Assembly: GCF_037042905.1 (NCBI RefSeq)
Contig: NC_087250.1
Coordinates: 16,866,001 to 16,930,000 of the forward strand
DNA length: 64,000 nucleotides
DNA from: Lytechinus pictus
Taxonomy: Eukaryota
Direction of reading: 5' to 3'
The position numbers and the translations under genes are program-made. Below, in pieces: positions 13,310-51,198 of the stretch. Position 1 is the first letter of the stretch; every line of letters starts with the position of its first letter. Below the pieces are notes generated by a model that did not search any database, had not been told where the DNA came from, and worked only from the letters and a program-made list of their open reading frames with translations.

Positions 13310-13349
<40 letters not shown>

Positions 13350-21041: not shown

Positions 21042-21334
21042 TCAAGCTAGTCCAAAATAAGTACACCCGTCAGAACGGCTGAAAAACCGAGCATCCGCCC
21101 TCTTCTTCAGCACGTAATTCAGCTCGCAAACACCACCCTGAATAAAGTTGACAGACTGGCACCCAACGATGTCAACACACATCAAAGCGCATCGTAACTG
21201 GCTCACCATTCGCACAGTCTCCATCACGTGACCAACTAGACAGTAGCCAATCAGATCACGTCCATTGTTATCTTTGCTTGGGAGGAACACGTTGGATTTG
21301 CTGATCTTGCGAAGTGGAGTTGCTCTGGGGGTAG
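21042..21334 (-). CDS. PAN/apple-domain terminal exon, copy 1
   Basis: Phase-1 acceptor TGCATGCAG|CT, open frame with six Cys (C..C...C....C.S.NF....CELN), stop; AATAAA at 20819-20814. Use in mRNA unproven. Confidence 0.7.
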
Positions 21335-22871
21335 CTGCATGCAATTAATCAACACACAGTAATGAAATAGTGATAAAGGCATATTATTAGCATAACGTGC
21401 CTGTAAATGGAGCATTAACCATATTAGCAATTAAATTAACAGTATGATTAATAAAATGTAGTAGTACAAACGTAACGGAATGCAAGCATGCAGACATACC
21501 AGAGCATATTCGCATCGGTACATGCCAAACTATGAATTAGTATATCTGGTTAATTTGTATGTGACATGTTACCCCAAACCCAAGTTAGTCGCCAGAGAAG
21601 ATACTCAGTACATAGAGAGAGAGAGATAAAAAAAAAGATACTTGATCTTCAAAATGTTAAAGTTACAAAATTTACCAGTTTCAAACAGCGCCTCTCCTTC
21701 TCCATACAACTTCTAACATTTTCTTTTACCGGACCTCCTGCTTGAGTGAAGCTTGAAAGTGAAACCTTCTTGTCTCCTCATTTTTTCCTCATTGTTTGAA
21801 GGTCTCACTAAATTTCTTCCATGCGAGGACGAGTTATTTCTTATTAATATTAAAGCATAGTGTACGATTTTTTTATGCTCAAATAAAATCTCACAATAAT
21901 TTTGAGCAACTTCTTGTTGATTATGTGGTGCCACGTCACATTTGCCAATAATTGTTGTAAAATAAGGTTTACATAAAAAAAACCAGGTCTACAAGTTAAA
22001 CTGTAATCTAAAAATAGAAAGGAAAGAATCGGATAAAAAGAGATCTAGAAATGGGGGAGGAAATCAACAATACTAGGGGAAAATATAGAAAGATCAGCAA
22101 AGAGAGAGCGAGAGAGAGAGGGATAACGATGCAATTAGGTCACGCATTTTGTCGGTATTTGTCGTTATTATTTGCCATGTACAATTGCTATGTAAAATGC
22201 ATCTATACTCTTTTGTTAAATTCACTGAACGGAAAAAATATCACTTCTAAAAAGGTGTACATTTGTATTATTCGGGTCGCATTAATCATTAATAATGATC
22301 CAATGCTTTTAATTCAATTGATATTTGCTGTCATTTTCAATGCAATTTTCCTACGCTTTTTTTGCGGGTGTCATGATGTACCACGTTCAAGAGAAGTGCA
22401 ACAAACTACAAGTAAGCATTCTCGAGAGTTTAAGCGAAGATGGAATTAAATGTAATGGATCGGTTACTTTATAGAGAGTTTTATGCATGATATGTTTTCT
22501 AAATGTTACTGAAGCTATGAAAGCAACAAATGACCACTTGACACCGCGCCTTTTTAGTAATCATAATAATATAAATGAACCTAGTTATTACTTTTAATAA
22601 TAACAACACGTTGTATTTTGTATCGAATTCTGCAATATACTATTTTCGTCAATTGTCTCAATCGTCACAAACTAAAATTACATTTTCAGCAAAAAATAAC
22701 TATAATGAATGATCAGATCGCTCGAGGCTGTATCATATTACCATACTTTGTATCGAATTATGGACTCCATAAGAACAAACACGTCGACATGACTATAGAT
22801 ATTGAGTAGGCATCTGGGTCAGTGTTGTAGTGTCTTGATGATCGGTCTTGGCCTTAAATAATGCCGGAAAA

Positions 22872-22943
22872 AAAATCTGCCGGGAATCGAACCCGGGCCC
22901 CCACCTTTGAACGCCGGTGCCTTAACCACTAGACCACAGAGAC
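22872..22943 (-). pseudogene. tRNA-like sequence, left arm of an inverted pair
   Basis: A box TGGTCTAGTGG, B box GGTTCGATTCC, T-run terminator; acceptor and anticodon stems imperfect. Confidence 0.7.
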
Positions 22944-23113
22944 GGGTTAGTGGCTAGGGCGACCACGATCCGATTGACCGTCAGATAGACAGATTTTCGA
23001 CACTATACCAATACCCACCTACACCCGACAAAGGAAATTATAATTGGTATAGTGTCGAAAATCTGTCTATCTGACGGTCAATCGGATCAGGGTCGCCCTA
23101 TAGCCACTACCCT

Positions 23114-23185
23114 GTTTCTGTGGTCTAGTGGTTAAGGCATCGGTGTTCAAAGCTGGGGGCCCGGGTTCGATTCCCCACAGATACA
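23114..23185 (+). pseudogene. tRNA-like sequence, right arm; tRNA-Glu-like body with TCA at the anticodon position
   Basis: Folds as GTTTCTG/CAGATAC acceptor (6/7), D arm, 7 nt loop GTTCAAA, 4 nt variable loop, TTCGATT T loop, then T6. Confidence 0.7.
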
Positions 23186-23340
23186 TTTTTTCGGCATTAC
23201 CAATTTTTCCAAAGGGGAGATAGCTCTGGGGAACTTTGATTTAAGCTACGCCTACCATTGTTCTCTTCATCAATTTCTTTCACAAAAAAAAAAAAAAAAG
23301 AGTTGCCAAAGCTGTTTTACATGTATAATTTCACACATTT

Positions 23341-23434
<94 letters not shown>

Positions 23435-23449
23435 ATATACATATACATG

Positions 23450-23485
<36 letters not shown>

Positions 23486-23935
23486 CGGAGGGGAGACGGG
23501 GAGACTGTAAGAGAACTAGATAAAGAATTTAAAATGAAAGGACAGAGAGAGAAAGAGAGAGAGAGAGGGGGTGGGGTAGAGGGATGCGGAATTGGCGAGA
23601 TGACTGTGAGAGAATAAGAGGAAGAATTTTGAGAAAGGGGGTTGGGGATAGAGGGACGCGGAATTGGAGACGAGACCGTGAGCGAATGAGAGGAAGAATT
23701 TAGAGAAAGGGGACAGAGAGAAAGGGGGTGGGGGTAGAGGGACGCGCAAGGGGAGAGATTCTGATAGAATTATGAGGAAGAATTTAACGAGAAGGGACAA
23801 AGTAATGGGAGGAGATGGAGGGATGCGAAGTGAGAAACAGGACACTGTGAAAGAACAAAGGGAAAATTTAATGAGAAGGGAAAGAGAGAGAGAGAGGGGG
23901 GGAGGTAATTTGCATAACATGAAGCCATACCTATA

Positions 23936-26900
23936 TAGTCTAGGTGATTGGTGAAAAAAACGTTCAGAAAATGATACAAGCATGAAAGTCGGCACAAAGG
24001 TAGAGTAAGTTATTCTAATTTATTTTAGCAGGGGGTGCCAACGTGAGTTCACCAAACATAGCAACGGTTGCTAGGTAATATATTTCCCTTCGCAACTTAG
24101 CTTTATTGGGCTTGAGTAACATTTTCACAAGCGATATGTCATACGAATTTTAATCTAAAGCATGTTCCTTTGTATCACAGCAGTTTTTATCCATTAATTC
24201 ATAGTAACGGTTGCTAAGTTACCCTCTTCCGTAGCATCTAATTCTTTATCTTAGTTCAGATCATTACAATTTACTCAGAATAGCTCAGAAATTCAATCTG
24301 GGCCCATATATTCGTCATGTGATGAATGTTTTCATAGGTAGACCCAATGAGTACCATAGCAACCGTTGCTAAGTAACATTTTAAACGGTAACCAATCATA
24401 ATAGGGTATCTTTTTATCATAATTTCTATAAATCGCATCTTTTCTATTAAAGCATTAATCACAACAACCCAAGAACAATTATACCATGTATACAAGCCCA
24501 TATATGCGAAGTAGTTGCTAAGTAATTACGTTATCTGTAGCAACCAATGGTTAAAGGCCGTAAGGTAAGATAATTGATGTGTATAAATCATAGAGGTACT
24601 AATAGATGCTTATAAAGTAAAACCTTGCACAAATTAAATTAACTCATGATATGGTTCATATTTCCAAAGACGATGTCTATGCGTTCCATATTATTGGTAT
24701 AATAATACTTATTGCATGTTAAAAGAACCTCACCTTAACACCAATCTTTATCCATTTAGAAACCATAATTATTATGGAATAAAGTAAACATAAGTAAAAG
24801 ACCGACCCTTGGAAAGAATTCCAAAATATCGACATTTAGCAAGAGGTCACTCTTGTAGAAGAACGGTTGCAAGAGCTCCCCAGGAGGTCATGGGTACTTA
24901 ACTAAATATATCTGATCTTGGAGAGATAAAAGAATGACCACCAAGAAACTAAGTTTAGAATTATTTCAAACATCAAAATCTCGCCAGAAGTTAATTTTCA
25001 AATGAGTACTCGGATAACAATTTATTTCTTGTTAACAATAACAGTAGTCGTTCGCTTGTAATCCAACACATTTTCCCTTAGTTTACCAACTTTCTTCCGT
25101 ACCCTGCAATGAAGATCATATTAGTTCTCCATGTCGTTCCCAAACCAAATGCCACGGGCAGGGGTCGATTTTGACCAGGCATTTGAATTAGATCAATCCT
25201 GCGCAGCTACGGGATCTATCATCTATTTGGACCATTCAGTTCCGTTTCCTGGCCTGTTGGCCTGAATCCTGCAGCTCCACGATCTATCATGACGTGACAG
25301 ATCTTGCTAGAGTTGATTTGGACCCGTCAGTTCCGTTACTATATAGGCATGCTGGCCTGGATCCTGGAGCTAAATGACTTGATCCTGCTGAATTTGATTT
25401 AGACCTGTCCGTTCTTTTTCCAAGTGTTTTGACCTGGAACAATCCTGCAGCTCCAGGATTTGTCATCACGTGAAAGATTTCACAACAGTTGATTTGGACC
25501 AGCCAGTTCTGTTTTCAGGCGTGCAGGCATGGATCCTGCAGCTCAGAGGTCTATCATGACTTGATAGATCTTGCAGGACTATGCGCCTCTGATTTTTTCA
25601 CCTACGTATGTGAAGCACTTGTGATATCAGGTTGGCTTGACGCGATCCATACTCTTCCACAGAACAGTAGCATGAAGTTCTGATATTCTTCTTCCTTACA
25701 TATACCTCTTATACTTGTTGGCATGTCCAACTCAGATGAAAATGATTCTGCAGATGGCACTACCACCTTGTCTCGCAATATAATTTCCTTATGGAGAGAA
25801 ATGTTTCTTACACTTTGATTGATGAACAATTAATTGTCCCATTGAAGAGGATGATGACTGTAACTTTCTTGATGTATTCCTCTGTTGCCTCTGATATTCT
25901 TTGTCGAGCATACTGCATGCTTCACAGTGGTCATGCTTTCCCGTACTTATGATTAACCCAGACAGTCTTAACTTAAATTTTGGACGAAATATATGCCCTA
26001 CTTTGAGAAGTCATGTGCGACACATATAATGTACGTTCGATTAATTCGTTAGAATTGTACCCGAAGTCCCAGGCTATTGGAAACTTACAGTGTAAATATA
26101 AATCATTTATTTTCCTTCATCCTCTAGAAACTATTGCAAAATATCCTGTAAATTATGTAAATGACTCAAGTGCCCAGCATTATGATCAAATAAAAGATAC
26201 ATACAATGGCAATTGCGTCTAGTAAACTTGGGATTAGAATCATTTTTTTAAGATGCTCAAATACCCGGTAAAATGGGCAAGAATGATGAAAGAAGTAATT
26301 CCAAGCAGGTTGGAAAGCTCTGTACCAACACCTTGACACTGCTTTCCATTTTCCAACCATACTTTTTGATGACCTGGTACAACATACAATATCTTGCACA
26401 TTACCGCTTTATCTTCATGATTTGTAGGATGCAGCGTTAATGATTAGTGTCAATTACAGAGATAACAATTTCTCTTAAAAGATTTTGCTGTATAATCGAC
26501 ACATTAATGTATGCTTCGTGACATACTCACAAGTGGTACATGGGCAATCGATTTTTTAAGCTGTTTCAGGTCTACTGTCCATGCTATGCATTGAACATAT
26601 CCAGTCAATGATGCTTGAGGCTCGTTTCAGGTCTACTGTCCATGCTATGCATTGAACATATCCAGTCAATGATGCTTGAGGCTGTTTCAGGTCTACTGTG
26701 CATGTTATGTACAGTGAACATACAGTCAATGATGCTTGAGGCCGTTTCATGTCTACTGTACATGCTTTTCAAGTCAGTCAATAATATCAAAACTTTCCTG
26801 ACAAGTAAGTGTGTGGGCATTAATCGCCATTGCTTCCCAATGAAGCTTTGTCATTTGGGAGCGATTATTCAGATTCCCTTTGCCCTAAAATTTCAGTGTC

Positions 26901-27550
26901 TTTCCCAGTGTTCCATGTACATCCACTACAATACCCTGTCTCATTTTCATAACAGGCGAGATCCTATATAATTATTAAATAGTAAGCACATTCAATGACC
27001 CAGTAATGATTTTTGTCGGTGTGTTAGCCGCGTGATGTATGAAGAAAAATAATCAAATCATGTATATCAAAATTAGGTTTGTTACCTAGATACGAATATT
27101 ATGCAGATATTATAATTATTTTGATTGCTTCTGAATTTTTCAGACTTATGAGACATTTTAAACTCCCAGGTTTCATACTTTGACCAATTTTCTAACCATT
27201 TTCATTCAAATATTATGACCAGATGGTGTATTCAGAAATATTATCTATAGTTCATATGGAAAATGTGTTGCTTAGCAACTGTTGCTGTACTTAGTTGGAA
27301 CGTTGGTATGTGATTGTAAAATTGGCGCTTAGAAGTCAAACTATAGTTTTTAACATGTAGATAACACCCCAAAATGGTAGTTGCTAAGGTAAATATGTTA
27401 CCTAGCAACTGTTGCTATACGAGGAGAGATCAGGTTGGCACCCCCTGCTAAAAATGTTCAGCACTGTTTACTCTACCTGTCAGCCAAATTTCATGCTTGT
27501 ACCATAATCTGAACAATTCTTGCTATTTTTTGCACCGATCATCCAGACTA
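23936..27550. mobile_element. Academ-like non-autonomous DNA transposon, copy 2 only
   Basis: TAGT...ACTA termini with a long imperfect TIR and repeated AGCAACNGTTGCT motifs; 3 bp TSD ATA confirmed by the empty site CCTATATCCGG near 34767. Confidence 0.8.
26559..26770 (+). repeat. ~61 bp minisatellite, about 3.5 copies, inside the Academ-like element
   Basis: Repeating GCTGTTTCAGGTCTACTGTCCATGCTATGCATTGAACATATCCAGTCAATGATGCTTGAG. Confidence 0.9.
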
Positions 27551-27765
27551 ATATCCGGCACCCTAAATCGAAATTCAAAATATGGTGGATTATTGTATTT
27601 GACTCGTACTAATTGCAGTGACTTTTGTATTTAGCAAGCATAATTATTATCATATTTTTATGTTTGTAAAGTATTTTATTCCCGAGGATGGCCTATATCT
27701 GGACTGTTTTCATTTACAGATGTCAGTTACCAGATTCAAGAAAAGGCTTTTTATTGTTTACCTAA

Positions 27766-28367
27766 AGGGATGGTCCGGGCTTAAAATATTTCTATCTAAA
27801 TAAATAGAGTAAAATTCACAAAGCAAAATGCTGAAAATTTCATCGATATTGGATAACAAATAACGAAGTTATTGAGTTTTGAAGATTATCAATAGTTTGT
27901 TAAAACAGTTATTTGCACATCGTCATGAATATTCATTAGGTGGGCTGATGATGTCACATCCCCACTTTGCTTTTTTTCTTACGTTATTACATGAAATCAT
28001 AATTGTTTCATTTTTTCATACATGTGTAAATGATGTGTCTCCATTCTGATGAAATAAGTTGCAGCAAACTAATGCAATTAATCAGTTTTCAATTCAATTG
28101 TTTTAGTTCTTGGTAGACATTTTTTGAAAAACCTGATTTCATATAATAAAATACAAAAGAACAAATGGGGATATGACATCATCAGCCCACCTAATGAATA
28201 TTTATGAGACATGCCTAGAACTGTTTCAGCGGAATAATGTAAGTAAATCTTTACAATTTAATAACTTCGTTATTTGTTACCCGATTTTGATCAAATTTTC
28301 AGCATTTTGCATTTTGAATTTTATTCTATTTATTGAGATATATATATCTCTAGCCTGGACCATCCCT
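27766..28367. mobile_element. Kolobok-like MITE shared by copies 2 and 3 (second at 34985-35543)
   Basis: TIR AGGGATGGTCC / GGACCATCCCT; absent in copy 1 (CCTAAGCATTAG near 13996). Confidence 0.75.
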
Positions 28368-29703
28368 TTCCCAAGCATTAGTTTAATTAATGATTTTCCT
28401 TTCCTTCCCTACCGATTTCTTCTCTTTCGCACATAATTGTATATAGCTGTTACTCTTTATTTTCATATTACGCAGGGGAGGGGGTCAACATCAAACCATG
28501 GATCTAGTTGCTCCATGATCAAACAGTCAAGCATAATTATAAATATGACGTGTGTAATAGTTCTAACTTTAAATTTTAGAAATTTTATCTATGTGATAAA
28601 CCATTGCAATGTATGTATAGGCATTTCGTGTAATGCGAGACTAAGCAATTTATTCAATGATTTATTTAATAATAGACAGTTTTTGTATAGCGCATAATTT
28701 AATTTTATTCTGTCAATCATAAAATTATATTCATAAAACAATCATTCCATCAACCAATCAATCAATCGAGTCAATTCATCCACCAATCTATCCATCCATC
28801 CATATATCCTCCCATCCTTTCCAGGCGAGACAAAAACAAAACCAAAAATACAAAGTACATACAAACCATTAGGTACACATGATGAATTTTGAAGAACACT
28901 CCTTTTAATAAAGCCACGGCAAACTCACACAGAATTTCGTATATTCTCTTGTATACCATGGGCATGATTGGTATGATTATATTGTAAGCATTGTATTAAT
29001 GTTTATATAGTGCATAAATATACAAAGCTTGATTCTATTAGTATTTTCAATTATTCTATTGAACATTGTTAATTTCTATTTGTATTTGATAAATTTTAAT
29101 CGTTATTTATTTCAGGGGACTCACATAAACAAGCGATGCTTTCCAGTGAGTTCCTTTTTTCATTTTTGTGATTAATATTCTGATTTGTTCCTACTTACTT
29201 TCTTAATCCGTTTGAAATGAAGAAAAACAAATTCAATCAATCAATCAATCAGAATTAAATATTAAAATGCATGTATTAAAATTAAATACATTAACAAACC
29301 ATTGGAAATGTAATAGGTGATTAGATATCATTCAATTTGCATTACTGAAATTTATCATCTTAACGGGAACAGTTTAAATTCTAATGTATATTGATTTTAG
29401 TTTTTGACCCAGGGGCCTATGGGTACTTTGTTTAATGTAGGCCTAAATGTTCATCAATGGCTTCACTATTTTCATGATTGTGGTTCTCCCGAATATGAGT
29501 GGAGCATGTACCATATCATTGAACTAAATACAATATTGGGCCTATACGCCTGTCATACCTATTTTATCATTGTTCATTATAAGTTTCAGAGAGGGGTTTA
29601 TGATGGCAGTGCTAACAATTTATGTAGGCCTACACTTTGAATATAGGCCTATTCTTTACATACACGGGTCGTGTGGTCCAGTGATTAGAGCATTGGACTC
29701 ATA

Positions 29704-30012
29704 GGCCAGTATTCTTAAGTCGGGTTTAATTTAAACTTAGGTTTAAAGTTGTGGTTTAAGTATGGATAGCCAATTGTTACATAAAACAGTAACAATAGAG
29801 ATATCATATTTCAGCTCATTTGACTCCCGAATCATATAATTGTCAAGGAAGTATAAATAGATGATTGTCTTCACCATCGATGAACCAAGAAATAGCAGAG
29901 TAAACATAAGTAACATAAAACTTAATAAAAAAATTGACTCTTTTGGCTTACCATAATTTTAGCACAGAGTTAGACCATGGTCTAAGTTAAACCTGACTTC
30001 AGAATACGGGCT
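29704..30012. mobile_element. MITE inserted in the SINE tRNA head, shared by copies 2 and 3 (second at 37223-37533)
   Basis: TIR GGCCCGTATTCTGAAGTC / GACTTCAGAATACGGGC, ATA on both sides; absent in copy 1. Confidence 0.8.
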
Positions 30013-30469
30013 ATAATCGCAAAGGTTGTGAGTTTGAATCCCCACTCTGCCACTGTCTCCACTTTGATAAATATGCCCACAAGTGATATCTGTCGTCTAT
30101 AAGGTCAGCCACTATAGCTGATTAACCTAGACGTAAAATATTTCCTACTTTAATTGGTTATTGTATACCAGCTTGGCGTTTGCCAGCAAAATGCTGTCCT
30201 GCCGAGTTACCATTAACAGAAACAGAATAAAGCAATTTCGATTATTATTTTCTTAATACCCAGGGGTATTAACCCCCGATTTATATATTGTCTATACCAC
30301 ACAACTTACGACTAGTGTAGATAAAGTACACATATTTCTATACGAAGAAAACCGTTATTATGTTTGTTATTACACTCTGAAAATCGGTTTATCTATAACT
30401 GTATAAAAATAGAACATGCATGTGTTGGAGTACAATAGTGTGCACAGTTTTTCAACATTTGAGTGTGTA

Positions 30470-30684
30470 TTGGTGCATTGGTGATTTTTTACCTGATTGC
30501 TAAGAAAGCATGAATGCTTGTAAGCAAGCAACAAGAGGACCGACGGCTTAAGGTCCTCTCCGAAGGACCTGGTACTGAGGATTAATGCCTTACCAAAGGG
30601 CACTAGCGCACCAAGTGGGAATCGAACCCGGGTCACCGAAATACGAGTCCCCCGCTCTACCGACTGAGCTATCGCGCCTCCTGT
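30470..30684 (-). mobile_element. tRNA-derived SINE, copy 2 only
   Basis: Minus strand has A box TAGCTCAGTCGG and B box GGTTCGATTCC; 8 bp TSD AGTGTGTA; empty sites in copies 1 and 3. Confidence 0.85.
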
Positions 30685-31933
30685 AGTGTGTAGTAAGGAA
30701 TCTCGACAGAGAAAAAACTTTATTTGTAATTGATTCCCTCATTTTAGTTCACAATGATAGTTATATTAAGGTCAATTGTTTGCACAGCGTTATTAAACAA
30801 TGTAACAATAATCACAGCTAAGATTGGCAATATTATTAATTCCATATATAAATCGAAATAATTGCTTTTAAAGCATCATATTTACAATAGGTTTTATATT
30901 AACAAACTAAGTGGAAACTGCATTTTAAGTGAATGTTCACATTGACGTCAAGTTCTTTTTTTCTTTTTGAAGGTAGCGAAAAGGTTAAAAGAAGTAAGCC
31001 ACATATGTAGACAATTTATTGACTGATAACTAAGAATTCTGAAATGTAGTCTGAAGACGTCACATGTTAAGAGCTCCACGATCATTTATGCCATGTAATC
31101 TACATTTCATTTGTATTTCTCTTTTTTTAGGGGTGGGGGTACTCATATATACACACACACATATACATATTTCAATTCATAGAGAATAATTATGTGGAAT
31201 AATAGGGCCGATAGTGTTCTTGCAAAATCCTTCTAAACCTTTCTGAGAAAAGGTAAATAGAGGGAGCTGTTAAATATTAAATGAAGACTTCAGACAATAT
31301 CCTCATCTTCGTTTCATAGAGACGCATGCGCAGAGTGCAAACATTAGGACACTAAAAGCGAACACTACTAAATATATCTGTGTTAAATGGCTACTTTTTG
31401 TGTTGTCTTGATAATAACCCACTATTAAAAAATAACAGGAGCTAAAGTTGCAATATGTGCAGCTTGCAAGTAAGTAACGTCACAAAATTAAACAAAATCT
31501 GAAAAGTATGTTTATATCAAAAATCTTTAATCTTATGTCATAAGTCCTTATTCATATTTTACTAACAACCCTTTTCTTAGCTTAGTCATACTGGTTTTAA
31601 TTGCTATATGTTAACTTCATCAGTGAATAAATGATATAATATTGTGTTTATTATTGTCCTTTTATGTTTGATTGAAAATCTGTAAATATTTTACTTTGTA
31701 TAATTTTTATTCGTATTTTGTTGAAGGAATACATTTGTAAATAAATCTAATTTAATCTAATATATTCTTTCAAACTTCGTTGATAATTTTAAAGAAATAT
31801 TTTCTTTTTGTTTTGTTTTTTGTTTTTACTGAAACCAAGTTGACGTCAGCATAAATATCGCTTCCCAAACGTCTATATCTCTCCATGAAAATTGAACCTT
31901 ATAAGTATCTTGGGGCCCTCTCGCGTTGACAAA

Positions 31934-32226
31934 TCAAGCTAGTCCAAAATAAGTACACCCGTCAACTCGGCTGAAAAATCGAGCATGCGCACTCTCCTTT
32001 AGCACGTAATTCAGCTCGCAAACACCGCCCTGAATGAAGTTGAAAGACTGGCACCCAACGATGTCAACACATATCATAGCGCATCGTAACTGGCTCACCA
32101 TTCGCACAGTCTCCACCACGTGACCAACTAGACAGTAGCCAATCAGATCACGTCCATTGTTATCTTTGCTTGGGAGGAACACGTTGGATTTGCTGATCTT
32201 GCGAAGTGGAGTTGTTCTGGGGGTAG
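31934..32226 (-). CDS. PAN/apple-domain terminal exon, copy 2
   Basis: Same acceptor, length, six Cys and stop as the other copies; AATAAA at 31711-31706. Use in mRNA unproven. Confidence 0.7.
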
Positions 32227-33745
32227 CTGCATGCAATTAATCAACACACAGTAAGGAAATAGTGATGAAGGAATAGTATTAGCAAAGCGTGCCTGTGAAT
32301 AGACCATTAACCATATTAGCAATTAAATTAACAGTATGATTAATAAAATGTAGTAGTACAAATGTAACGGAATGCAAGCATGCAGACATACCAGAGCATA
32401 TTCGCATCGGTACATGCCAAACTATGAATTAGTATATCTGGTTAATTTGTATGTGACATGTTACCCCAAACCCAAGTTAGTCGCCAGAGAAGACCCTCAG
32501 TACATAGAGAGAGGGAGATTAAAAAAAAAAGATACTTGACCTTCAAAATGTTAAAGTTACAAAATTTACCAGTTTCAAACAGCGCCTCTCCTTCTCCATA
32601 CAACTTCTCACATTTTTTTTACCCGGACCTCATGCTTGAGTGAAGCTTGACAGTGAAACCTTCTTGTCTCCTCATTTTTTCCTCATTGTTTGAAGGTCTC
32701 ACTAAATTTCTTCCATGCGAGTACGAGTTATTTCTTATCAATTTTAAAGCATAGTGTACGATTTTTTTATGCTCATTAAAATCTCACAATGATTTTGAGC
32801 AACTTATTGTTGATTATGCGGTGCCACGTCACATTTGCCAAAAATTGTTGTAAACAAAGTAAAAAAAACAGGTCTACAAGTTAAACTGAAATCGAAAAAT
32901 AGAAAGGAAAGAATCGGATAAAAAGAGATCTAGAAATGGGGGAGGAAATCAACAATACTAGGGGAAAATATAGAAAGATCAGCACAGACAGAGCGAGAGA
33001 GAGAGAGGGATAACGATGCAATTAGGTCACGCATTTAGTCGGTATTCGTCGTTATTATTTGCCATGTACAATTGCTATGTAAAATGCATCTATACTCTTT
33101 TGTTAAATTCACTGAACGGAAAAAATATCACTTCTAAAAAGGTGTACATTTGTATTATTCGGGTCGCATTAATCATAAATAATGATCCAATGCTTTTAAT
33201 CCAATTGATATTTGCTGTCATTTTCAATGCAATTTTCCTACGCTTTTTTTGCGGGTGTCATGATGTACCACGTTCAAGAGAAGTGCAATAAACTACAAGT
33301 AAGCATTCTCGAGAGTTTAAGCGAAGATGGAATTAAATGTAATGGATCGGTTACTTTATAGAGAGTTTCATGCATGATATGTTTTCTAAATGTTACTGAA
33401 GCTATGAAAGCAACAAATGACCACTTGACACCGCGCCTTTTTAGTAATCATAATAATATAAATGAACCTAGTTATTACTTTTAATAATAACAACACGTTA
33501 TATTTTGTATCGAATTCTGCAATATACTATTTTCGTCAATTGTCTCAATCGTCACAAACTAAAATTATATTTTCAGCAAAAGATAACTGTAATGAATGAT
33601 CAGATCGCTCGAGGCTGTATCATATTACCATACTTTGTATCGAATTATGGACTCCATAAGAACAAACACGTCGACATGACTATATATATTGAGTAGGCAT
33701 CTGGGTCAGTGTTGTAGTGTCTTGATGATCGGTCTTGGCCTTAAA

Positions 33746-34214: not shown

Positions 34215-34279
<65 letters not shown>

Positions 34280-34287
34280 ACATATAC

Positions 34288-34326
<39 letters not shown>

Positions 34327-38360: not shown

Positions 38361-40131
38361 TTAATACCCAGGGGTATTAACCCCCGATCTATGTATTGTC
38401 TATACCACACAACTTACGACTAGTATAGATAAAGTACACACATTCCTATACGAAGAAAACCGTTATTATGTTTGTTATTACACTCTGAAAATCGGTTTAT
38501 CTATAGTTGGGTAAAAAAAGAATATGCATGTGTTGGAGTACAATAGTGTGCATAGTTTTTCAACATTTGAGTGTGTAGTAAGGAATCTCGACAGAGACAA
38601 ACTTTACTTTTATTTGATTCCCTCATTTTAGTTTACAACGATAGTTATATTAAGGTCAATTGTTTGCACAACGTTACTAATACCTTGGTCACATTTGTTC
38701 TACGGCGGCCGTACGGCGAGTCGAAAACAGCTGTTTTAACATTTTTTGTACCAGCTACATAATTATAGGTGGTTTGAATAAAAATGAATAAAACGACTGT
38801 TTTCGACTCGCCGTACGACTGCCGTAGACCAAATGTGACCAAGGTAAAATGAGTGTGACAATAATCACAGGTAAGATTGGCAATATTATTCTTTCCATAT
38901 ACAAATCGAAAAAATCAATTGCTTTTAAAGTCTCATATTTACAATAGGTTTTCTATTAGTATTAGATGCCTGCTTATGTTCCCATCCAACATGTTTAACA
39001 AACCAACTGGAAACTACATTCTAAGTGAATGTTCACATTGACGTCAATTTCATTATTTTTTTATTTTTAAAGGTAGCGAAAAGGTTAAAAGAAGTATGCC
39101 ACTATGTAGAAAATTTATTAACTGATAACTAAGAATTTTGAGATGTTATCTCAAAATGTCAAATTTGAAGAGCTCCGCAATGATTTATGTCATATAATCT
39201 TTTTTTTTTTTTGGGGTGGGGGGGGGGTATTCATATAAACCAGGAGCCGCGGAGCCTCCTACATTTTCCAAAACCGTGCACAAAAACGTAAAAATGACCA
39301 TATGATTATGATTTTGTTTTTGCATGGTCAGCCCTCCCCCACTTTGAAAACTATTCCGCGGCCCCTGTATACACATACAATCATATAAATATTTAAATTC
39401 ATAGAGAATATGAGGAATAATAGGGCAGATAGTGTGCTTGTAAAATCCTTCTAAACAATTCTGAGAAAAGGTAAATAGAGGGAGCTGTTAAATATTAAAT
39501 GAAGACGACACAATATCATCAACTTCGTATCACAGAGACGCATGCGCAGAGTGCAAACAGGAGGACATCAAAAGCGAACACTACTAAATATGGCTACTTA
39601 TTGTGTTGTCTTGATAAGAACCCACTACTGAAAACATAACAGGAGCTATAGTTGCAATATGTGCAGCTTGCTAGTAAGTAACGTCACAAAATTAAACAAA
39701 ATCTGAAAAGCATGTTCATATCATAAATCTTTAATCTTATGTCATAAGTCCTTATTCATATTTTACTAACTACCCTTTTCTTAGCTTTTTTAGGTTCTAA
39801 TTGATATGTTTTTAATTTATCAGTGAATTAATAATACAATATGGTGTTTATTGTTAACATTTTATGTTTGATTGAAAATCTGTAAATATTTGACTTTGTA
39901 TAATGTTTATTCGTATTTTGTTGACGGAATACATTTATAAATAAATCTGATTTAATCTAATCTATTCTTTCAAACTTCGTTGACATTTTAAAGAAATATT
40001 TTCATTTTGTTTTGTTTTTTGTTTTTACTGAAACCAGGTTGACGTCAGCATAAAAATCGCTTCCCACATGTCTATATCTCTTCATGAAAATTGAACCTTA
40101 TAGTATCTTGGGGCCCTCTCGCGTTGACAAA

Positions 40132-40424
40132 TCAAGCTCGTCCAAAATAAGTACACCCGTCAGATCGGCTGAAAAACCGAGCATGCGCACCCTCCTTCTG
40201 CTCGTAATTCAGCTCGCAAACACCGCTCTGAATGAAGTTGAAAGACCGGCACCCAACGATGTCAACACACATCATAGCGCATCGTAACTGGCTCACCATT
40301 CGCACAGTCTCCATCACGTGACCAACTAGACAGTAGCCAATCAGATCACGTCCATTGTTATCTTTGCTTGGGAGGAACACGTTGGATTTGCTGATCTTGC
40401 GAAGTGGAGTTGCTCTGGGGGTAG
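40132..40424 (-). CDS. Lectin gene exon 6: proximal PAN/apple-domain terminal exon
   Basis: Phase-1 acceptor matches the phase-1 donor of exon 5; six Cys PAN pattern; AATAAA at 39911-39906. Confidence 0.82.
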
Positions 40425-41900
40425 CTGCATGCAATTAACACACAGTAATGAAATAATGATAAAGGCATTATTAGCAATGCCTGTCTATCAATGGACCATT
40501 AACCATATTAACAATTACATTAACAGTATGATTAAAGAAATGTAGTAGTACAAACGTAACGGAATACAAGCATGCACACGTACCAGAGCATAACATAATT
40601 TACTTGCATCGGTATATGCCAAACTATAAATTAGTAGATCTGTTTAATCTATTTGTGTCCTGTTACCCCCAAACCCAATAGTTAGTCACCAGAGAAGATT
40701 ATTTGTAAATAGAGAGAGAGAGAAGGGGGGGGGGGGGACTTGATCTTCAAAATGTTAAAATTCCAAAATTTACCACTTTCAAATAGCACCTCCCCTTCTT
40801 CATACAACTTCTAGCATTTTTTTTACCCGGACATCATGCTTGAGTGAAGCCTGAAAGTGAAACCCTCTTGTCTCCTCATTTTTCCTAATTGTTTGAAGGT
40901 CTCACTAAATTTCTTCCACTTCGAGTTATTTCTTATCAATTTTAAAGCATAGTGTACGATTTCTTTTATGCTCAATGAAAACTCACAATAATTTTGAGCA
41001 ACTTCTTGTTGATTATGCGGTGCCACGTCACATTTGCCAAAAATTGTTGTAAAACAAAGTAAAAAAAAACAGATCTACAAGTTAAACTGAACTCGAAAAA
41101 TATAAAGGAAAGAAGACGACATAATAGGATATAAAGAAATCTAGAAATAGGGGAGGAAATCAACAATGCTAGGGAAAAATATAGAAAGATCAGCAAAGAG
41201 AGAGAGAGGGGGGGGATAACGATGCAATTAGGTCACGCATTTAGTCGGTATTTGTCGTTATTATTTGCCATGTACAATTGCTATGTAAAATGGATTTATA
41301 CTCTTCTGTTAAATTCACTGAACGGAAAAAATATCACTTCTAAAAAGGTGTACATTTGTATTATTCGGGTCGCATTAATCATTAATAATGATTTAATGCT
41401 TTTAATCCAATTGATATTTGCTGTCATTTTAAATGCAATTTCCCTGCGCTATTTTGCGTGTGTCATGATGTACCACGTTCAAGAGAAGTGCAATGAACTA
41501 ATGTAAGCATTCTCGAGAGTTTAAGTTGACAATGGAATTGAATGTAGTGGATCGGTTTAGAGAGTTCCTTGTATGATATGTTTTCTAAATATTACTGAAG
41601 CTATGAAAGCAACAAACGGCAATTGACACAGCGCCTTTTTAGTAATCATAGTAATATAAATGAACCTAGTTATTAGTTTTAATAATAACAACACGTTGTA
41701 TTTGTATCGAATTCTGCAATATACTATTTTTGTCACTTGCCTCAATCGTCCCAAACTAAAATTATATTTTCAGTAAAAATAACTTTAATAAATGATCAGA
41801 TCGCTCGAGGTTGTATCATACTACCATATATTGTATCGAATTATGGACTCTATAAGAACAAACGTGTCGACATGACTAGATATTGAGTAGGCATCTGGGT

Positions 41901-44297
41901 CAGTGCTGTAGTATCTTGATGATCGGCCTTGGCCTTAAGGCGCGTTAATGCCTACTTTTTTAAAGCCTTGGCCTTGAGGACTTTGAGCCTTGACATTTCA
42001 AGGCTTTTTCGATGCATTTTTTTTTATTTTGAACACATTTGTTTTTTGTAAGTAATTGTAAATGTTTCAATTGTTTTGTATATTTAATGACAATAATGGC
42101 CAATAACCCCAGTCAGCAGTAGTAGTAAGTTTACTGGCAGTGTCATCAATTGTAATTATCACCATTATAAATAATTATCATCATACATGTAACAAAAAAG
42201 AAACAGCAGTGATGAAAAAATAACATTATTGACACTGGTAATATGTAGTAATCATGACTAATGATGATAATGACAATAGAAATAATAATAATGATAATAA
42301 TAATGATAGTGTTAATAATTATGATAAATATAATAATAGCGATTATTAACATGATGACAGGAATAAGTATGACAGATCTGACTGCGATTTTGACAATACT
42401 TTTCATACTTTAAAATCTCTAAAAAATGATAACAAGGTTGATTTCTATTGCATAAGGATAATCTTTCTATTATTTTCTTGAGCCAGCAAGAATGTTTTAA
42501 GTCTCAACGTTATTCAGAAAAGATTTGGTTAACTTGAACACAATCTTCAATTTTGTCATATTCAAATTGGCTATGTCAATGGCAGGATGAGCCAAACAGA
42601 ATTTAGGGGCCAAACATGGCATATGGAGCAAAATTTCTGCCAAAAAAAGTTGGAAGCGATTGAAGCGAGCCAACAAAAAATTGTACTCTCTTAATAATTT
42701 GATAAAGAAAAGCTAATTTTGTGATAAACTGTGAGAATATGTTTAGAAAAAATAATATCACATTTACTCCTTTTCCTTTCCTTTTTTCCTTTTCTAAGCT
42801 TTTTCTTGGCGATGGAACTTCTCCTCTCTCTCTCTCTCTCTTTATTTTTTTTTGGGGGGGTCTGACATTTCTAAAAACAAGCGAGGAAGAGGAATGAGAG
42901 GACAGAAAGAGAAGAGAGGAGGAGGGGGAAAAACACTTGAAGGCTAAAGATAGATGGGGTGACACAATTGGCTGGTTGGGCAGAATAGCCCAGTTCGTAG
43001 TTACTTCATGGACAATTTTGGTGAAATGACATTTCTTTTCTTTCATTAAGATAGGCAGATTTCAAAGCAAGATATTACGTATGCATGCCTTACATAGCGG
43101 GATGAAGAAATTGAATAGACCAGGTGACGAGAATAGCACATCAATGAACACTCTATGAAGGTATTTTTGTTGTTGCATTTTTACTTTGAATGCATATTAG
43201 AGGATGTTGTACAATGTACTTGGCAAACTGTGAAATATACAAGTCATTCGTGGACGCATTGTTTTTTGTGGATGTGAATGAAAAACACAATTTAAAAGAA
43301 TAAATGAATGATCAAGACATCGACGTTGGTGCTTATCTCATTAAATTTGAAACCACCATGTCACTTTAGTACAAATGACTTTCCTCTGATCATGCACAGA
43401 ATCTTCTGATCATGCCCAGAGTGGAACTACGAACTGGCTTACATTTGTGTAATTACTGCAAAATCAGTTAATACGTTGATAAGCAGTACATCTTTTCTAA
43501 TTTTGTTTATTGTGATTTGAGTCTAGTGTCTCAGATCGACCAAAAACAAAGCAAATGTATATAAATATATATTTATCCTTTTGAATATCACTTTATTTTG
43601 TTAGTATTCTTTATTCCGGTTCTTTAGTTAGAGTAAGTGTAGAAGATACACAAAATGAGAATTGAAATTAAAAAGTGGTTGTAAGCAGAAAAGAAGCATG
43701 AAAACACACAAGAGTCCTAAAAATGACTCATTTTCAGGTCAGCATTTGAATATGTCAACCTGCGCTTTGTGCTCTCTTGCCCAATAAAATTATTTGTAGG
43801 AAAAATTCCCCTTTTTTTCAAAATGGATAATGCCTTTTTTCAAATGAAAAATATGCCTTTTTTAAAAACGAAATACCTTTCTTGAAGGTACATTTTGATT
43901 TTGAAAATCACTAAATTTTTGGCTCAAGCTTCGGGCTCACATCAATTATTGTTTAGTTAGGTACTAATCCTGTTCATGGTTGCAGAAATGTTCTGAATGT
44001 CCAGTGTTTTCAGGTTGGAATATCACAAAATTTTGGCTCGCGTTCCGCGGTCGCATTAATTATTGCTTAGTTAGTTAGGTACTCATTCCGTTGCTGGTTA
44101 CAAAAGTGCTTAGAATGTCCAGTTTTCAGGTTGGAATATCACATATTTTGAGCTCACGATTCGCGCTTGCATTATTTGATTTGTAAGATATGTATCCTAT
44201 TCATGAGTCAATAAATGCACTCCTTAACATGTTCTTTTTTCTGGTCAGTATATTAAATTTTCATAAGTGCCCTTTTTGGCTTTGCCCCCCCCCCCCC

Positions 44298-44332
<35 letters not shown>

Positions 44333-44795
44333 GTTCTGCCGCCCTTGTCCCAAACAATGGAGAAAGGGTAGACGTTGAGAATGGGCATGCCAGGATCGGA
44401 TGACAGGGGGATTAACGATTATTGCAATGTAAATCGCCTAAAGAAATAATAACAAAGGTAATTATTTTGTTACTATCATATTTTCATATTATGTCTAAAT
44501 CTATAATAAAATCAAATTTTCATGTACAAAAGGTCGAGAATTTTGCTCGCTCACACCTTTTGTAGATTTTGCACTGTTTGCCATGTCTGTACCCTAAGCT
44601 TAAGCAATGTTGGCTCATTGTTCCGTGTATCGTTTGAAATGCCTTTGCATTGAGGTTTTCAGGCCTTCGCCTTGGTCTTGGGTCTCTATGCCAGGCTTGG
44701 CCTTGGCCATGGGTATTAAAATCTTAGCTTTGGGCAATAAAGCCTTGGCCTGGGCATTGCGTGGCATTGGAGGTTTAGCCTTGACTACAACACTG
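41901..44795. mobile_element. 2.9 kb composite hAT-like non-autonomous element in intron 5
   Basis: TIR CAGTG(C/T)TGTAGT / ACTACAACACTG; perfect 8 bp TSD ATCTGGGT; subterminal GGCCTT repeats. Confidence 0.88.
42989..43439. mobile_element. TIR element nested in the hAT-like element
   Basis: CCAGTTCGTAGTT near 42992 and its inverse AACTACGAACTGG near 43425. Confidence 0.55.
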
Positions 44796-45194: not shown

Positions 45195-45243
45195 CATCGG
45201 TGTTAGTTCCACTTGAAACTTCATTAGCAATGGTGGTTCCATC
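45195..45243 (-). CDS. Lectin gene exon 5: 49 nt linker (DGTTIANEVSSGTNTD)
   Basis: TTTCCCCCAAG acceptor and GTAAGT donor; phase 0 to 1 bridges exons 4 and 6. Confidence 0.8.
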
Positions 45244-45591: not shown

Positions 45592-45938
45592 CTGTTCCGA
45601 ATCCGTGCCCCAATTTTGCATTGTTGAGGTCTTTGTGGTGGTTTGAGTAGGTGGACCTGGTGTGGTTGGTTGTGTAGGAACTTGGGTGGTTGGGCTTGTC
45701 GTGGTTGGTGTGGTAGGACCTTGGGTGGTTGGGCTTGGTGTGGTTTGTGTTGTAGGATCTTGAGTCGTTGGGCTTGTCGTAGTTGGTGTTATAGGATCTT
45801 GGGTGGTTCGGCTTGTCGTAGTTGCTGCTGTTGTTGTAGGATCTTGGCTGGTTTGTCCAGGTGTAGATGGCGTTGTAGCCTCTTGAGTGATTGGATCAGC
45901 AGGGGATGTTGTGGTTGTGGGTTCAGGTAGAGGATCGA
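45592..45938 (-). CDS. Lectin gene exon 4: Thr/Pro mucin-like stalk with 13-aa repeats
   Basis: TATGTAG acceptor, CAG|GTAATC donor, phase 1 to 0; PTTQDPTTxTTxS repeats. Confidence 0.85.
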
Positions 45939-46245
45939 CTACATAAATACAATGATTGTAATCAACCGGGTTTATGTCGGATGAGTCTTTATGCAAATAG
46001 TTATAACGTTTCCGTCATTCGACACCATTACCACATATATAGCATAGGGTGTGTATTGTATTGTATTGTTATTGTTAATATGCATGAATTAACATACACA
46101 TGGGGGTCGTTCTTACACCTTTCAAAATATCTGTGATTGAAAAATCAGAATTTATTAACCCCATTGGAATCTAATTTAACACATGTATCACGTGGTATAA
46201 AGATGGTGTATCTAGTCACTGCATTTAACTTTTTCCTAGCACTGA

Positions 46246-48698: not shown

Positions 48699-49052
48699 AC
48701 ATATATATGTATATGTATACATGTATATACACACAAATGAAGGCATATTGTTCTCTTTACTTTTTAATAAAACGTATACTAATGTACACGAGGTAAAAAC
48801 AAACCAAATCAAAATGCCTTTGAAGACTAATTCTTCAAAGTGTCATAGAATATTAGCAGCAGTAGAATGATTAAATGACAATACAACATAATAAATATAT
48901 TAATTTTGATAATACATTGATAAATTAATGAATGAATAAATGAATGAAAAGAATCATGTAGTTTGCTTGAATTGTTATTCTAAGATTTCATGTGAGCTAA
49001 TAATATAACAGTGAACACTAAACAAATTACTGTGCGTATGCCTATCAGTCAC

Positions 49053-49190
49053 CTTCGCAGAGAGCGAACGCAAGTGAGTTGCAATCAGTATCCTCCAAGC
49101 CATTGCTGGTTGGTAAATAGTAAACACAGTCCTCAATGCCACCCCCTCCAACAGAACTCTTGGGATATCCTTGCGCACTAAGCCACAAAT
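49053..49190 (-). CDS. Lectin gene exon 3: C-terminal half of the CTLD (alternative in-frame acceptor at 49292)
   Basis: DLWLSAQGYP..EDCV...LEDTDC....ALCE; CATACAG acceptor, GAAG|GTGACT donor, phase 1-1. Confidence 0.85.
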
Positions 49191-49832
49191 CTGTATGAAT
49201 AAAACAGACATGATTTCTAAGACTTGAATTCATTGGCAAAATATCACATAACACATGACTCTTGGGGTATCCTTGTGAACTGCGCCACAAGTCTGTAAAA
49301 ATAGAAAATAAATTACTGAAGCCCGATTAAAATTCTGAAGACGATTCTCAAAACTTTAATTAATTTACTAAGTAAAATCAGAGGTTGTATCACACATCAC
49401 ATCTTGTGTGGAAGGTGTGATCTAACGCATCAAATTATCTGGTGACTGAAAAACAAATGAATAAAATCTTCTTTTTTATTGATCATTTCTCAAGCGCAAT
49501 GTTACGAACGAATTTTAGGATGTAATGTTCAAAGGTAACTTTTTTTTCAAATTCAGTGTCTAAATCTATAATACGGCCGTATGTCCTTCACATGTCTACG
49601 AAAAATGTGTTGAAATCTTGTTTTTTATTTCTAAAGAAAGTGTCCTTCAATATCATTCATCCCCTTGTGTGTGTTTGTTTGTTATTTGATGTTATTCGTT
49701 GGGATAGAGTTTTAATGGTAATGAGCCCCATCCCCTTGCATCCATTGAGTTCTATTGACACCAGATGCAGTTAATTCTTCCATGGTCCCTGTACATACAT
49801 GTATTTCAGTAATATTCGTTGAGTAAACTTAC

Positions 49833-50129
49833 CACTGTTTAGGGATAGCTGCGTACCGTCTTCACATTCAAATAAGCCCTCTACTTCGGCATCCGTACAG
49901 CCAACCCAGAAGTTAAATGGTGATCCAAGTGCAGCTCCCATAATATTAGTTGCATAAATATTACCTATATTACTCGTCTCACTCTGGCTGTTGAAAACTA
50001 CAAGTTTAGCACCCATGCCCGCACAAATTACTTTAGCCTCTTCATATGAAGGAACGTTAGACCAGTTAAGGTCTTGGAACTTGTAGCATCCGGAACCTTC
50101 ATTGTACCAGCCATCGGGACATGCGCTAT
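49833..50129 (-). CDS. Lectin gene exon 2: N-terminal half of the CTLD
   Basis: SACPDGW...GCYKF...SYEEAKVIC...AKLV...FWVGCTD..EG.F; TTGTAG acceptor, GTAAGT donor, phase 1-1. Confidence 0.9.
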
Positions 50130-50394
50130 CTACAATAAAGGGATGACAGAGGCATAATATAATAAATTTCCCTGAGTAGAGTTCTTATACAAACCTTAAA
50201 GATCAACATTTTGTATGATTTTTTCAAATTGCCCCCGCTTATAGCAGCATCGAGGGGAAATAATATGAGGGGTACTATTCTTCAATGATATTTGGAAACT
50301 ATAAAGCAATCACAGATGTTGTAAACCATCCGATTCATCAATAGGTAACAAAATATACCCTGTTCAAATATTTCCATATTTACTCTTTCCTTAA

Positions 50395-50998
50395 AGGACA
50401 AGTCCACCCCAGCAAAAAGTTGATTTGAATAATAAGAGAAAAATCCAACAAGCATAACACCGAAAATGTCATCAAAATCGGATGTAAAATAAAAAAGTTA
50501 TTACATTTTTAAGTTTCGCTTAATTTCACAAAACAGTTATATGCACATCCTGGTCGATATGCAAATGAAGGGACTGATGACATCACTCACTCACTATTTC
50601 TTTTGTATTTTATTATATGATATATGAATTATTCTAATTTTCTCCTCATTGTCCTGTGCGACAAAGTTTAATTCCTCCCTGAACATGTGGTATTACCATT
50701 GTTATGACATCTTATGGCTCAGTTAAGTTGGTCCTTAATGTCAAATTGGTGAAAATTGAAATATTGTATAATTCAAACAATAAAAACAAAAGAAATAGTG
50801 AGTGATGGACATTATCAACTCTCTCATTTGCATGTCACTGAGTTGTGCATATAACTGTTTTTGTGAAAAATGAACGTAACTTTAAAATGTCATAACTTTC
50901 TTATTTTACATCCGATTTCGATGAAATTTTCAGCATTATGCTTGTTTGATTTTTGTCTATTGATTCAAATCAACATTTTTCTGGAGTGGACTTGTCCT
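50395..50998. mobile_element. Kolobok-like MITE with TTAA TSD in intron 1
   Basis: TTAA|AGGACAAGTCCAC...GTGGACTTGTCCT|TTAA. Confidence 0.88.
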
Positions 50999-51062
50999 TT
51001 AATGAATTTAACATTATAACACTTTGTATAAGTTTACATATGTTTAATTGGATACTAGGTAC

Positions 51063-51126
51063 TTGAATGAAATGAGATAAGAAACCACAATGAAATGATG
51101 ACGACAATCTTGAGTTTCGCATCCAT
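51063..51126 (-). CDS. Lectin gene exon 1: signal peptide MDAKLKIVVIISLWFLISFHS
   Basis: Hydrophobic leader; phase-1 GT donor (weak, A|GTACCT) in frame with exon 2; TATA box upstream. Confidence 0.7.
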
Positions 51127-51190
51127 TTCTGGAAACTAGTGGAGAGGGATATATGCTTGGTCCAGAAACACAGTGCAAGGTAGTATGCAG

Positions 51191-51198
51191 TATTTATA
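51191..51198 (-). promoter_or_regulatory. Candidate TATA box of the lectin gene
   Basis: TATAAATA on the minus strand about 65 nt upstream of the ATG. Confidence 0.55.

What the first reader, a model, noticed from the sequence alone, without database searches (positions are those of the whole stretch)
21042..51198. One lectin front end, three intact alternative PAN terminal exons
Seen: exons 1-5 (signal, CTLD, mucin, linker) occur once and end in a phase-1 donor at 45195. Three same-strand PAN exons follow (40424, 32226, 21334). Each keeps the phase-1 acceptor, 293 nt length, six Cys, stop and a downstream AATAAA, while the flanks are full of indels and insertions. They differ at several residues, mostly late in the domain (YEQKEGAHA, YVLKESAHA, YVLKKRADA). 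The duplicated units stop inside intron 5, so the distal exons could only be used by splicing from the shared donor. Inference: an emerging alternative-last-exon cassette that swaps the PAN domain of a secreted recognition protein. Caveat: my by-eye count for copy 1 vs 2 (about 10 replacement, 5 silent changes) cannot separate constraint from neutral drift.
Basis: partly seen in the sequence, partly recalled or inferred. Interest (0 to 1): 0.72.

Follow-up and report, generated by a model that had tools for sequence, protein, structure and literature searches.

The report
Spare last exons, sea urchin lectin
A sea urchin lectin-like gene is followed by two intact extra copies of its last exon, which are likely mostly unused leftovers of ordinary tandem-gene turnover, and no RNA examined here showed them spliced in.

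Summary
The anatomy is right: one C-type-lectin-like/mucin front end, a phase-1 donor at 45195, and three intact 293-nt PAN exons with acceptor, six Cys, stop and AATAAA. The cassette reading is unproven. Three raw RNA runs were nearly silent over the gene, so junctions could not be counted. The public model of this gene (labelled Lytechinus pictus) uses copy 1 and has no near-identical isoform. The middle 10-kb unit is a hybrid, head like unit 3 and tail like unit 1: an unequal crossover, or two haplotypes assembled in tandem. Exon 2 versus 3 diverges no less than its flanks (15/293 vs 97/2265, p=0.54). Low divergence from copy 1 sits in a 163-bp identical tract that looks like gene conversion. 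L. variegatus relatives keep their PAN exons in whole genes. Best reading: orphan 3' copies, copy 1 used by default, as in cichlid agrp2 exon 3a/3b. The scan noted duplicated last exons in other genomes but nothing like this protein.

The parts
51193..51198 (-). TATA-like box upstream of exon 1
   Evidence: read from sequence; function untested
51063..51126 (-). Exon 1 coding part, hydrophobic signal-like peptide; donor uncertain (51063 weak, or 51056 with a shifted acceptor); in-frame TAG just beyond
   Evidence: relatives P0006 and P0007 have a leader of similar length before the same exon-2 start
49833..50129 (-). Exon 2, N-terminal two thirds of a C-type-lectin-like domain
   Evidence: Pfam Lectin_C 33.7 bits vs cutoff 22.6; matches P0001
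49053..49190 (-). Exon 3, C-terminal third of the lectin-like domain; canonical sugar-binding motifs not present
   Evidence: motifs recalled
45592..45938 (-). Exon 4, Thr/Pro-rich mucin-like stalk with 39-nt repeats
45195..45243 (-). Exon 5, linker, phase-1 donor ATG|GTAAGT
41901..44795 (.). Non-autonomous DNA-transposon-like element in intron 5 with 12-bp terminal inverted repeats; the duplicated units begin about 50 bp inside its 3' end
   Evidence: element class inferred from the terminal repeats and a 73% copy at 59924-60713
34216..41938 (-). Repeat unit U1 (end of intron 5, PAN copy 1, 3' flank)
40132..40424 (-). PAN exon copy 1, the annotated last exon; AATAAA at 39911 and 39852
   Evidence: 100% identical to the end of P0001
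33746..34312 (.). Junction J1: (TA)n, a tRNA-derived SINE-like element and an inverted, truncated second arm joined to intron-5 sequence at a 7-nt microhomology
   Evidence: Rfam tRNA hits 34002-34073 and 33760-33831; heavily covered by RNA reads of the repeat family
23361..33744 (-). Repeat unit U2, a hybrid: head like U3, tail like U1; carries a 3.6-kb insertion (23936-27543)
31934..32226 (-). PAN exon copy 2, intact, no own front end; AATAAA at 31711 and 31652
22859..23467 (.). Junction J2, 93.5% identical to J1
13308..22857 (-). Repeat unit U3; ends in unique sequence with no SINE
21042..21334 (-). PAN exon copy 3, intact, no own front end; AATAAA at 20819 and 20763

Best explanation
The gene likely splices exon 5 to the nearest PAN exon (copy 1) and likely ends at its poly(A) signal, while copies 2 and 3 are intact, promoterless copies that are likely mostly unused leftovers of turnover in a tandem lectin-mucin-PAN family. 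Shown: three units in tandem; unit 2 is a hybrid of units 1 and 3; both junctions carry the same truncated SINE joined into intron 5. Inferred history: a first duplication gave units A and B (about 9% flank divergence); B lacks a front end, either because a whole second gene lost exons 1-5 by deletion (slightly favoured) or because only the 3' end was copied; an unequal crossover then made the middle unit; conversion has shuffled patches between the exons. Low-level leak to the distal copies is likely possible, as in cichlid agrp2.
For: Hybrid unit: per 200 aligned bases U2-U3 differ by 2-12 in the head (U1 by 10-31), while in the tail U1-U2 differ by 3-13 and U2-U3 by 13-26. Copies 2 and 3 share the junction, so their divergence postdates loss of a front end; there the exon is no better kept than the flanks (15/293 vs 97/2265, p=0.54; dN/dS 0.6, p=0.35), and a neutral simulation leaves both intact with P 0.17-0.23. 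Copy 1 and 3 are identical from -14 to +149 although the last 300 intron columns differ by 13%, and silent divergence copy 1-2 is 0.03 against flanks 0.09: homogenisation. The public model uses copy 1 and its 90% cluster has 1 member; no short annotated product for copy 3 (0 of 2 candidates). L. variegatus P0002 and P0003 put PAN behind complete front ends, with three front ends for two PANs, and share residues 75, 78 and 80 in mosaic with copies 1 and 3. S. purpuratus isoforms X1/X2 differ by the lectin exon, not the last exon. No selector helix for distal copies beats shuffles apart from simple repeats. Precedent: agrp2 exon 3a dominant in 32 of 33 species (PMC6916709, passages).
Against: Default use of copy 1 was not observed directly: no spliced junction to any copy appears among the 15 joints shown, 214 being hidden. 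The only raw-read depth on a PAN exon above 0.1 was 0.6 in the copy-2 bin of one run, about one read pair, in the orientation expected for sense RNA. If B had been orphaned at the first duplication with no conversion, intactness has P about 0.03. Exon divergence from copy 1 is below flanks (p=0.007, 0.037). Private changes in copies 2 and 3 are 9 replacement to 6 silent, below the neutral ratio though not significantly (p=0.16-0.31 for neighbouring counts). C-terminal swaps are the enriched class of duplicated-exon events in human (77 of 236; PMC9741552, passages).
Confidence: 0.55

Rival explanations
1. A working alternative-last-exon cassette: the exon-5 donor is joined to copy 2 or 3 at regulated rates in some tissue or after challenge, giving proteins that differ at about 10 of 96 PAN residues.
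For: All three copies keep acceptor, frame, six Cys, stop and AATAAA; exon below flank divergence against copy 1; about one sense read pair in the copy-2 bin; variable residues 75-80 are shared with L. variegatus, so the PAN types look old; an unnamed gene model P0004 also has two tandem PAN domains.
Against: No junction seen; no annotated isoform; no constraint signal since copies 2 and 3 split; the only copied helix arm (12 bp, -17.5 kcal/mol) sits at the median of 25 shuffles, and the strongest helix (a G-run with a C-run, -46) is next to copy 1; known functional cases are mostly ancient (PMC9741552, passages).
Confidence: 0.2
2. The chromosome has two copies, not three: copy 2 and copy 3 are alleles of one orphan unit that the assembler placed in tandem by joining haplotypes through A/B similarity.
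For: The segment from the tail of U1 through J1 to the head of U2 repeats as tail of U2, J2, head of U3 at about 1-6.5% substitution, within sea urchin heterozygosity (2.9% L. variegatus, 4-5% S. purpuratus; PMC9557091, passages). This is the shape a false duplication would take.
Against: An unequal crossover between alleles gives the same shape. The window has no N. A contig from run X1 matches the U2-specific stretch 31400-31711 with 6 differences in 312, where U1 and U3 are only 89-90% alike, so that sequence exists, though not shown in cis with U3.
Confidence: 0.17
3. The whole locus is decaying: exon 1 has lost a usable donor, so neither a secreted protein nor a choice of ending matters.
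For: Weak exon-1 donor and in-frame TAG; public models in both Lytechinus species start at the internal Met; near-zero depth in three RNA runs; copy 1 has 6 private replacement changes and 0 silent.
Against: A 395-aa frame with a leader is open with the 51063 donor; all other splice sites are good; TATA box present; paralogues with leaders exist (P0006, P0007, P0104, P0106); tissues of the three runs are not on record.
Confidence: 0.08

Closest known systems
Cichlid agrp2 exon 3a/3b tandem duplication (PMC6916709, passages read)
   Same: Recent tandem copies of a Cys-rich last coding exon with flank, no own promoter, further copies by likely unequal crossover; there the proximal copy dominates (32 of 33 species), with 22-25% leak in two individuals and one case of resurrection.
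   Different: Units here are 7.7-10.4 kb rather than 1.6 kb, show conversion patches (none found in agrp2), and may come from a whole paralogue that lost its front end; expression bias and copy-number variation are untested here.
Drosophila PGRP-LC, CG42235 and pip 3' variable regions (PMC6191721, abstract and Discussion read; PMC9013439, passages and Discussion)
   Different: Those isoforms are documented and steered by docking/selector pairing; here no distal junction was seen and no pairing beyond chance was found.
Tandem duplicated exon substitutions with C-terminal swaps in human (PMC9741552, passages read)
   Same: Homologous last exons behind a shared donor; 77 of 236 events are C-terminal.
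   Different: More than 90% of those events have orthologues in bony fish; these copies are 95% alike and the arrangement is not seen in annotated relatives.
Sea urchin lectin-like domain (+ mucin stalk) + PAN proteins (P0001-P0008, P0102-P0107)
   Same: Same domain order and exon joins; P0001 is this gene with copy 1.
   Different: Relatives are annotated as uncharacterised whole genes with one PAN; my searches listed no paper on the family, judged from titles and abstract openings.

Membership tests
Functional alternative last exons (PGRP-LC / tandem duplicated exon substitution) | Homologous tandem exons in phase with one shared donor, each with acceptor, stop and poly(A) signal | tested here: met
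Functional alternative last exons (PGRP-LC / tandem duplicated exon substitution) | Transcripts join the donor to more than one copy | tested here: inconclusive
   gene nearly silent in 3 raw runs, about 6% of each read; 15 of 229 joints shown; copy 3 outside the laid stretch
Functional alternative last exons (PGRP-LC / tandem duplicated exon substitution) | Purifying selection on distal copies after they lost a front end | tested here: inconclusive
   copy 2 vs 3 exon not below flank, dN/dS 0.6 n.s.; private N/S 9/6 n.s.; low power
Functional alternative last exons (PGRP-LC / tandem duplicated exon substitution) | Arrangement conserved in other species | tested here: inconclusive
   protein annotations only: L. 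variegatus whole genes, S. purpuratus isoforms differ elsewhere; one unnamed model has two PANs; no genomic DNA of relatives available
PGRP-LC-type competing RNA pairing | Docking site with selector helices before each variable exon, beyond chance | tested here: not met
   12-bp terminal-repeat helix -17.5 vs shuffle median -17.8; stronger helices are simple repeats, best -46 before copy 1
Recent tandem last-exon duplication (agrp2 type) | Last exon plus flank copied in tandem downstream, without promoter or upstream exons, frame intact | tested here: met
Recent tandem last-exon duplication (agrp2 type) | Proximal copy dominates expression | tested here: inconclusive
   annotation uses copy 1; reads too few
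Recent tandem last-exon duplication (agrp2 type) | Copy number varies among individuals | not testable with these tools
   no raw DNA run was listed
PAN/apple domain | Pfam PAN_1 above cutoff, conserved Cys, PAN fold | tested here: met
   3 of 3 copies pass; copy-1 model pLDDT 87 ranks plasminogen, factor XI, HGF and apicomplexan PAN chains near the top, best E 3e-3, none at 1e-3
Ca2+-dependent sugar-binding C-type lectin | EPN or QPD plus WND motifs (recalled) | tested here: not met
   exon 3 translation lacks them; the domain itself passes Lectin_C
Secreted protein | Signal exon spliced in frame | tested here: inconclusive
   possible only through a weak donor; exon 1 was outside the laid stretch

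The most novel reading that the evidence does not exclude
A deletion removed the promoter and exons 1-5 of a neighbouring paralogue and handed its PAN exon to the upstream gene, so that PAN types older than the L. pictus / L. variegatus split, kept as separate genes in one species, now serve as alternative last exons of one gene in the other: paralogues turned into splice variants, caught at an early stage.
Probability: 0.13. Interest if true: 0.62.

Novelty: new member of a known kind. Interest (0 to 1): 0.3.

Why it matters
As most likely read, it is an ordinary product of tandem-array turnover and matters little beyond annotating an unstudied sea urchin lectin-PAN family. If distal splicing were shown, the locus would be a young, testable case of how alternative last exons arise, possibly by collapse of two genes into one, with copy-specific SNPs that make usage easy to count in a laboratory model species.

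Tried and rejected
Copy 1 alone shares 0.12-0.15 of those words. X1 contigs run unspliced and identical from exon 4 into intron 5 and from intron 5 through copy 1, with zero depth on the copy-2 exon; the run's nature is not on record and the tool warns that holes prove nothing, so I did not use the hole. The read lay did not cover exons 1-3 or copy 3. No whole genome is held, so other paralogues and read depth could not be checked. The MAFFT alignment of whole units misaligned across insertions; I used the BLAST projection instead. Sequence search of PDB gave nothing below E 0.45. Degenerate front ends between the copies: none. A simple tandem duplication with its breakpoint in the SINE was rejected, because the rest of that SINE arm is not at the end of U3 nor elsewhere in the window; a deletion or templated insertion is needed, and the junction alone does not tell whole-gene from partial duplication. 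Positive selection late in the domain was rejected: the last 143 nt differ from copy 1 at the flank rate (p=0.75-0.76). Private changes in copies 2 and 3 are not significantly confined to variable family columns (p=0.16). The L. pictus genome paper is not held, so its heterozygosity is not cited. No supplements were read.
Full report
What is there. The gene lies on the minus strand: TATA-like box at 51198, exon 1 from ATG 51126, exons 2-3 (50129-49833, 49190-49053) for a C-type-lectin-like domain, exon 4 (45938-45592) for a Thr/Pro stalk, exon 5 (45243-45195) for a linker with a phase-1 donor. Three PAN exons follow at 40424, 32226 and 21334. Each is 293 nt to the stop, free of indels, with six Cys, the same last 14 intron bases and two AATAAA. 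All pass Pfam PAN_1, and a model of copy 1 (pLDDT 87) finds PAN/apple chains as its nearest folds, weakly (best E 3e-3). Exons 1-5 occur once in the window. Two corrections: copy 1 vs 2 has 11 replacement and 2 silent differences, and exon 1 is in frame only through a weak donor, with a TAG just beyond it, so secretion is inferred. The lectin-like domain lacks the EPN/QPD and WND motifs (motifs recalled; translation), so sugar binding is not established.

Identity and family. Copy 1 is 100% identical to the end of P0001, labelled mucin-2-like of Lytechinus pictus. That model starts at an internal Met, uses copy 1, and its 90% cluster has one member; an isoform ending in copy 2 or 3 would be about 97% identical and should cluster with it (inference). 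No short product matched copy 3. The domain order recurs in S. purpuratus and in another L. pictus protein. In L. variegatus, P0002 runs two front ends into one PAN and P0003 is a further complete gene: three front ends for two PANs, the mirror of one front end for three PANs here. That reads as gain and loss in a tandem array (inference from gene models). The two S. purpuratus isoforms differ by the second lectin exon, not by the last exon. One unnamed model, P0004, has two PAN domains in a row, so PAN exons may have been duplicated elsewhere in the family too.

How the array was built. The units are U1 41938-34216, U2 33744-23361 and U3 22857-13308. Per 200 aligned bases, U2 and U3 differ by 2-12 in the intron head while U1 differs from them by 10-31; in the tail U1 and U2 differ by 3-13 while U2 and U3 differ by 13-26. 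U2 is thus a hybrid. That is what an unequal crossover in a two-unit array gives, and also what two haplotypes joined in tandem give; the divergence lies within reported sea urchin heterozygosity (2.9% and 4-5%; PMC9557091, passages). Both junctions hold (TA)n, a tRNA-like SINE and an inverted second arm that is cut off and joined at a 7-nt microhomology to the last 50 bp or so of a transposon-like element in intron 5. The rest of that arm is not at the end of U3 or elsewhere in the window, so the junction records a deletion or a templated insertion. Residues 75, 78 and 80 are shared in mosaic with the two L. variegatus PANs (copy 1 with P0003 at 78 and 80, copy 3 with P0002 at 78 and 80, the reverse at 75), which suggests two PAN types before the species split. 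With the whole genes of L. variegatus this tilts me, about 55 to 45, to a complete second gene that lost its front end rather than a copy of the 3' end alone.

Is there constraint? Against copy 1 the exons differ less than their flanks: 13/293 vs 199/2216 (p=0.007) and 14/293 vs 183/2214 (p=0.037). The deficit is all in the first 150 nt (1-2 differences); the last 143 nt differ at the flank rate (p=0.75-0.76). Copies 1 and 3 are identical from -14 to +149, and silent divergence between copies 1 and 2 is 0.03 against 0.09 in flanks (P=0.065), while the L. variegatus proteins differ from copy 1 at 3 and 7 of the first 49 residues. Conversion fits this better than selection alone, though the tract starting at the acceptor is also what selection would give. 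The clean test is copy 2 vs 3, which both carry the junction: 15/293 vs 97/2265 (p=0.54), dN/dS 0.6 (p=0.35). A neutral simulation at flank rates leaves both intact with P 0.17-0.23; had B been orphaned at the first duplication without conversion, P is 0.03. Private changes are 6 replacement and 0 silent in copy 1, 5 and 2 in copy 2, 4 and 4 in copy 3; none departs significantly from neutral. Intactness therefore does not require use.

RNA. Three raw stranded RNA runs of the matching species label and one contig set were laid on 31400-46100; about 6% of each raw run was read. Depth was 0-0.1 on the copy-1 exon bins and 0-1.1, on both strands, on the exon 4-5 bins. The copy-2 bin had 0.6 in X6, about one read pair in the orientation expected for sense RNA, and 0 in X7 and X8. 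No joint from 45195 is among the 15 shown; 214 are hidden. The gene is nearly silent in these samples and the junction test is inconclusive. X1 contigs are unspliced and identical to the window over 40037-42560 and 44935-45920, and one contig matches the U2-specific stretch 31400-31711 with 6 differences in 312, which shows that this sequence exists in a sample but not where.

Mechanism. All three acceptors end alike, and copy 1 comes first with its own poly(A) signals, 8 and 19 kb ahead of the others. By general knowledge of last-exon definition the proximal copy should win unless something steers the donor. I looked for docking/selector pairing as described for PGRP-LC (PMC6191721, abstract and Discussion). 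One arm of the transposon's terminal repeat was indeed copied with each unit, the geometry proposed to seed competing structures (PMC9013439, Discussion), but the helix is 12 bp at -17.5 kcal/mol, the median of 25 shuffles, and the strongest helix is a G-run/C-run pair before copy 1.

Comparison and verdict. The closest case is cichlid agrp2, where a duplicated last exon varies in number, the proximal copy dominates in 32 of 33 species, and the distal one leaks or is resurrected now and then (PMC6916709, passages). Functional C-terminal swaps are common but mostly ancient (PMC9741552, passages). Searches for a paper on this protein family listed none that treats it, judged from titles and abstract openings. 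The scan's earlier notes hold similar architectures in other genomes and nothing like this protein. Odds: mostly unused spare exons 0.55, working cassette 0.2, partly false duplication 0.17, decaying locus 0.08. New member of a known kind; interest 0.3.

Noticed in passing
window 49292-49191 (-): A degenerate copy of the intron end and start of exon 3 lies 102 nt upstream of the true acceptor and reads in frame into exon 3; its AG could add 34 residues to the lectin-like domain.
   Followed up: partly
window 11215-11464 (+): First coding exon of another C-type lectin gene with a leader peptide, convergent to the array, 33% identical to exon 2 over 49 residues; later exons not located.
   Followed up: partly
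window 33746-34210 and 22859-23332: Head-to-head pair of tRNA-derived SINE-like arms; reads of this repeat family reach depth of about 15,000 on one strand in rRNA-depleted RNA.
   Followed up: partly
window 16728-17578 and 17595-18445: An 851-bp direct tandem repeat at 99.9% identity inside U3: very recent duplication or assembly error.
   Followed up: no
window 2004-5006 (-), 56287-59268 (-), 61890-63831 (+), 6862-7954 (-): Endonuclease/reverse-transcriptase-like LINE frames, two of about 1000 codons unbroken, with gag-like ORF1 frames at 5571-6488 (-) and 51866-52630 (+); read by eye from translations.
   Followed up: no
protein P0004 (unnamed): A gene model with two PAN domains in tandem whose linker reads through an acceptor like the one here, hinting at an independent PAN-exon duplication in another urchin.
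   Followed up: no
window 8675-9193: A 157-bp tandem repeat, 3.3 copies, 93% alike.
   Followed up: no
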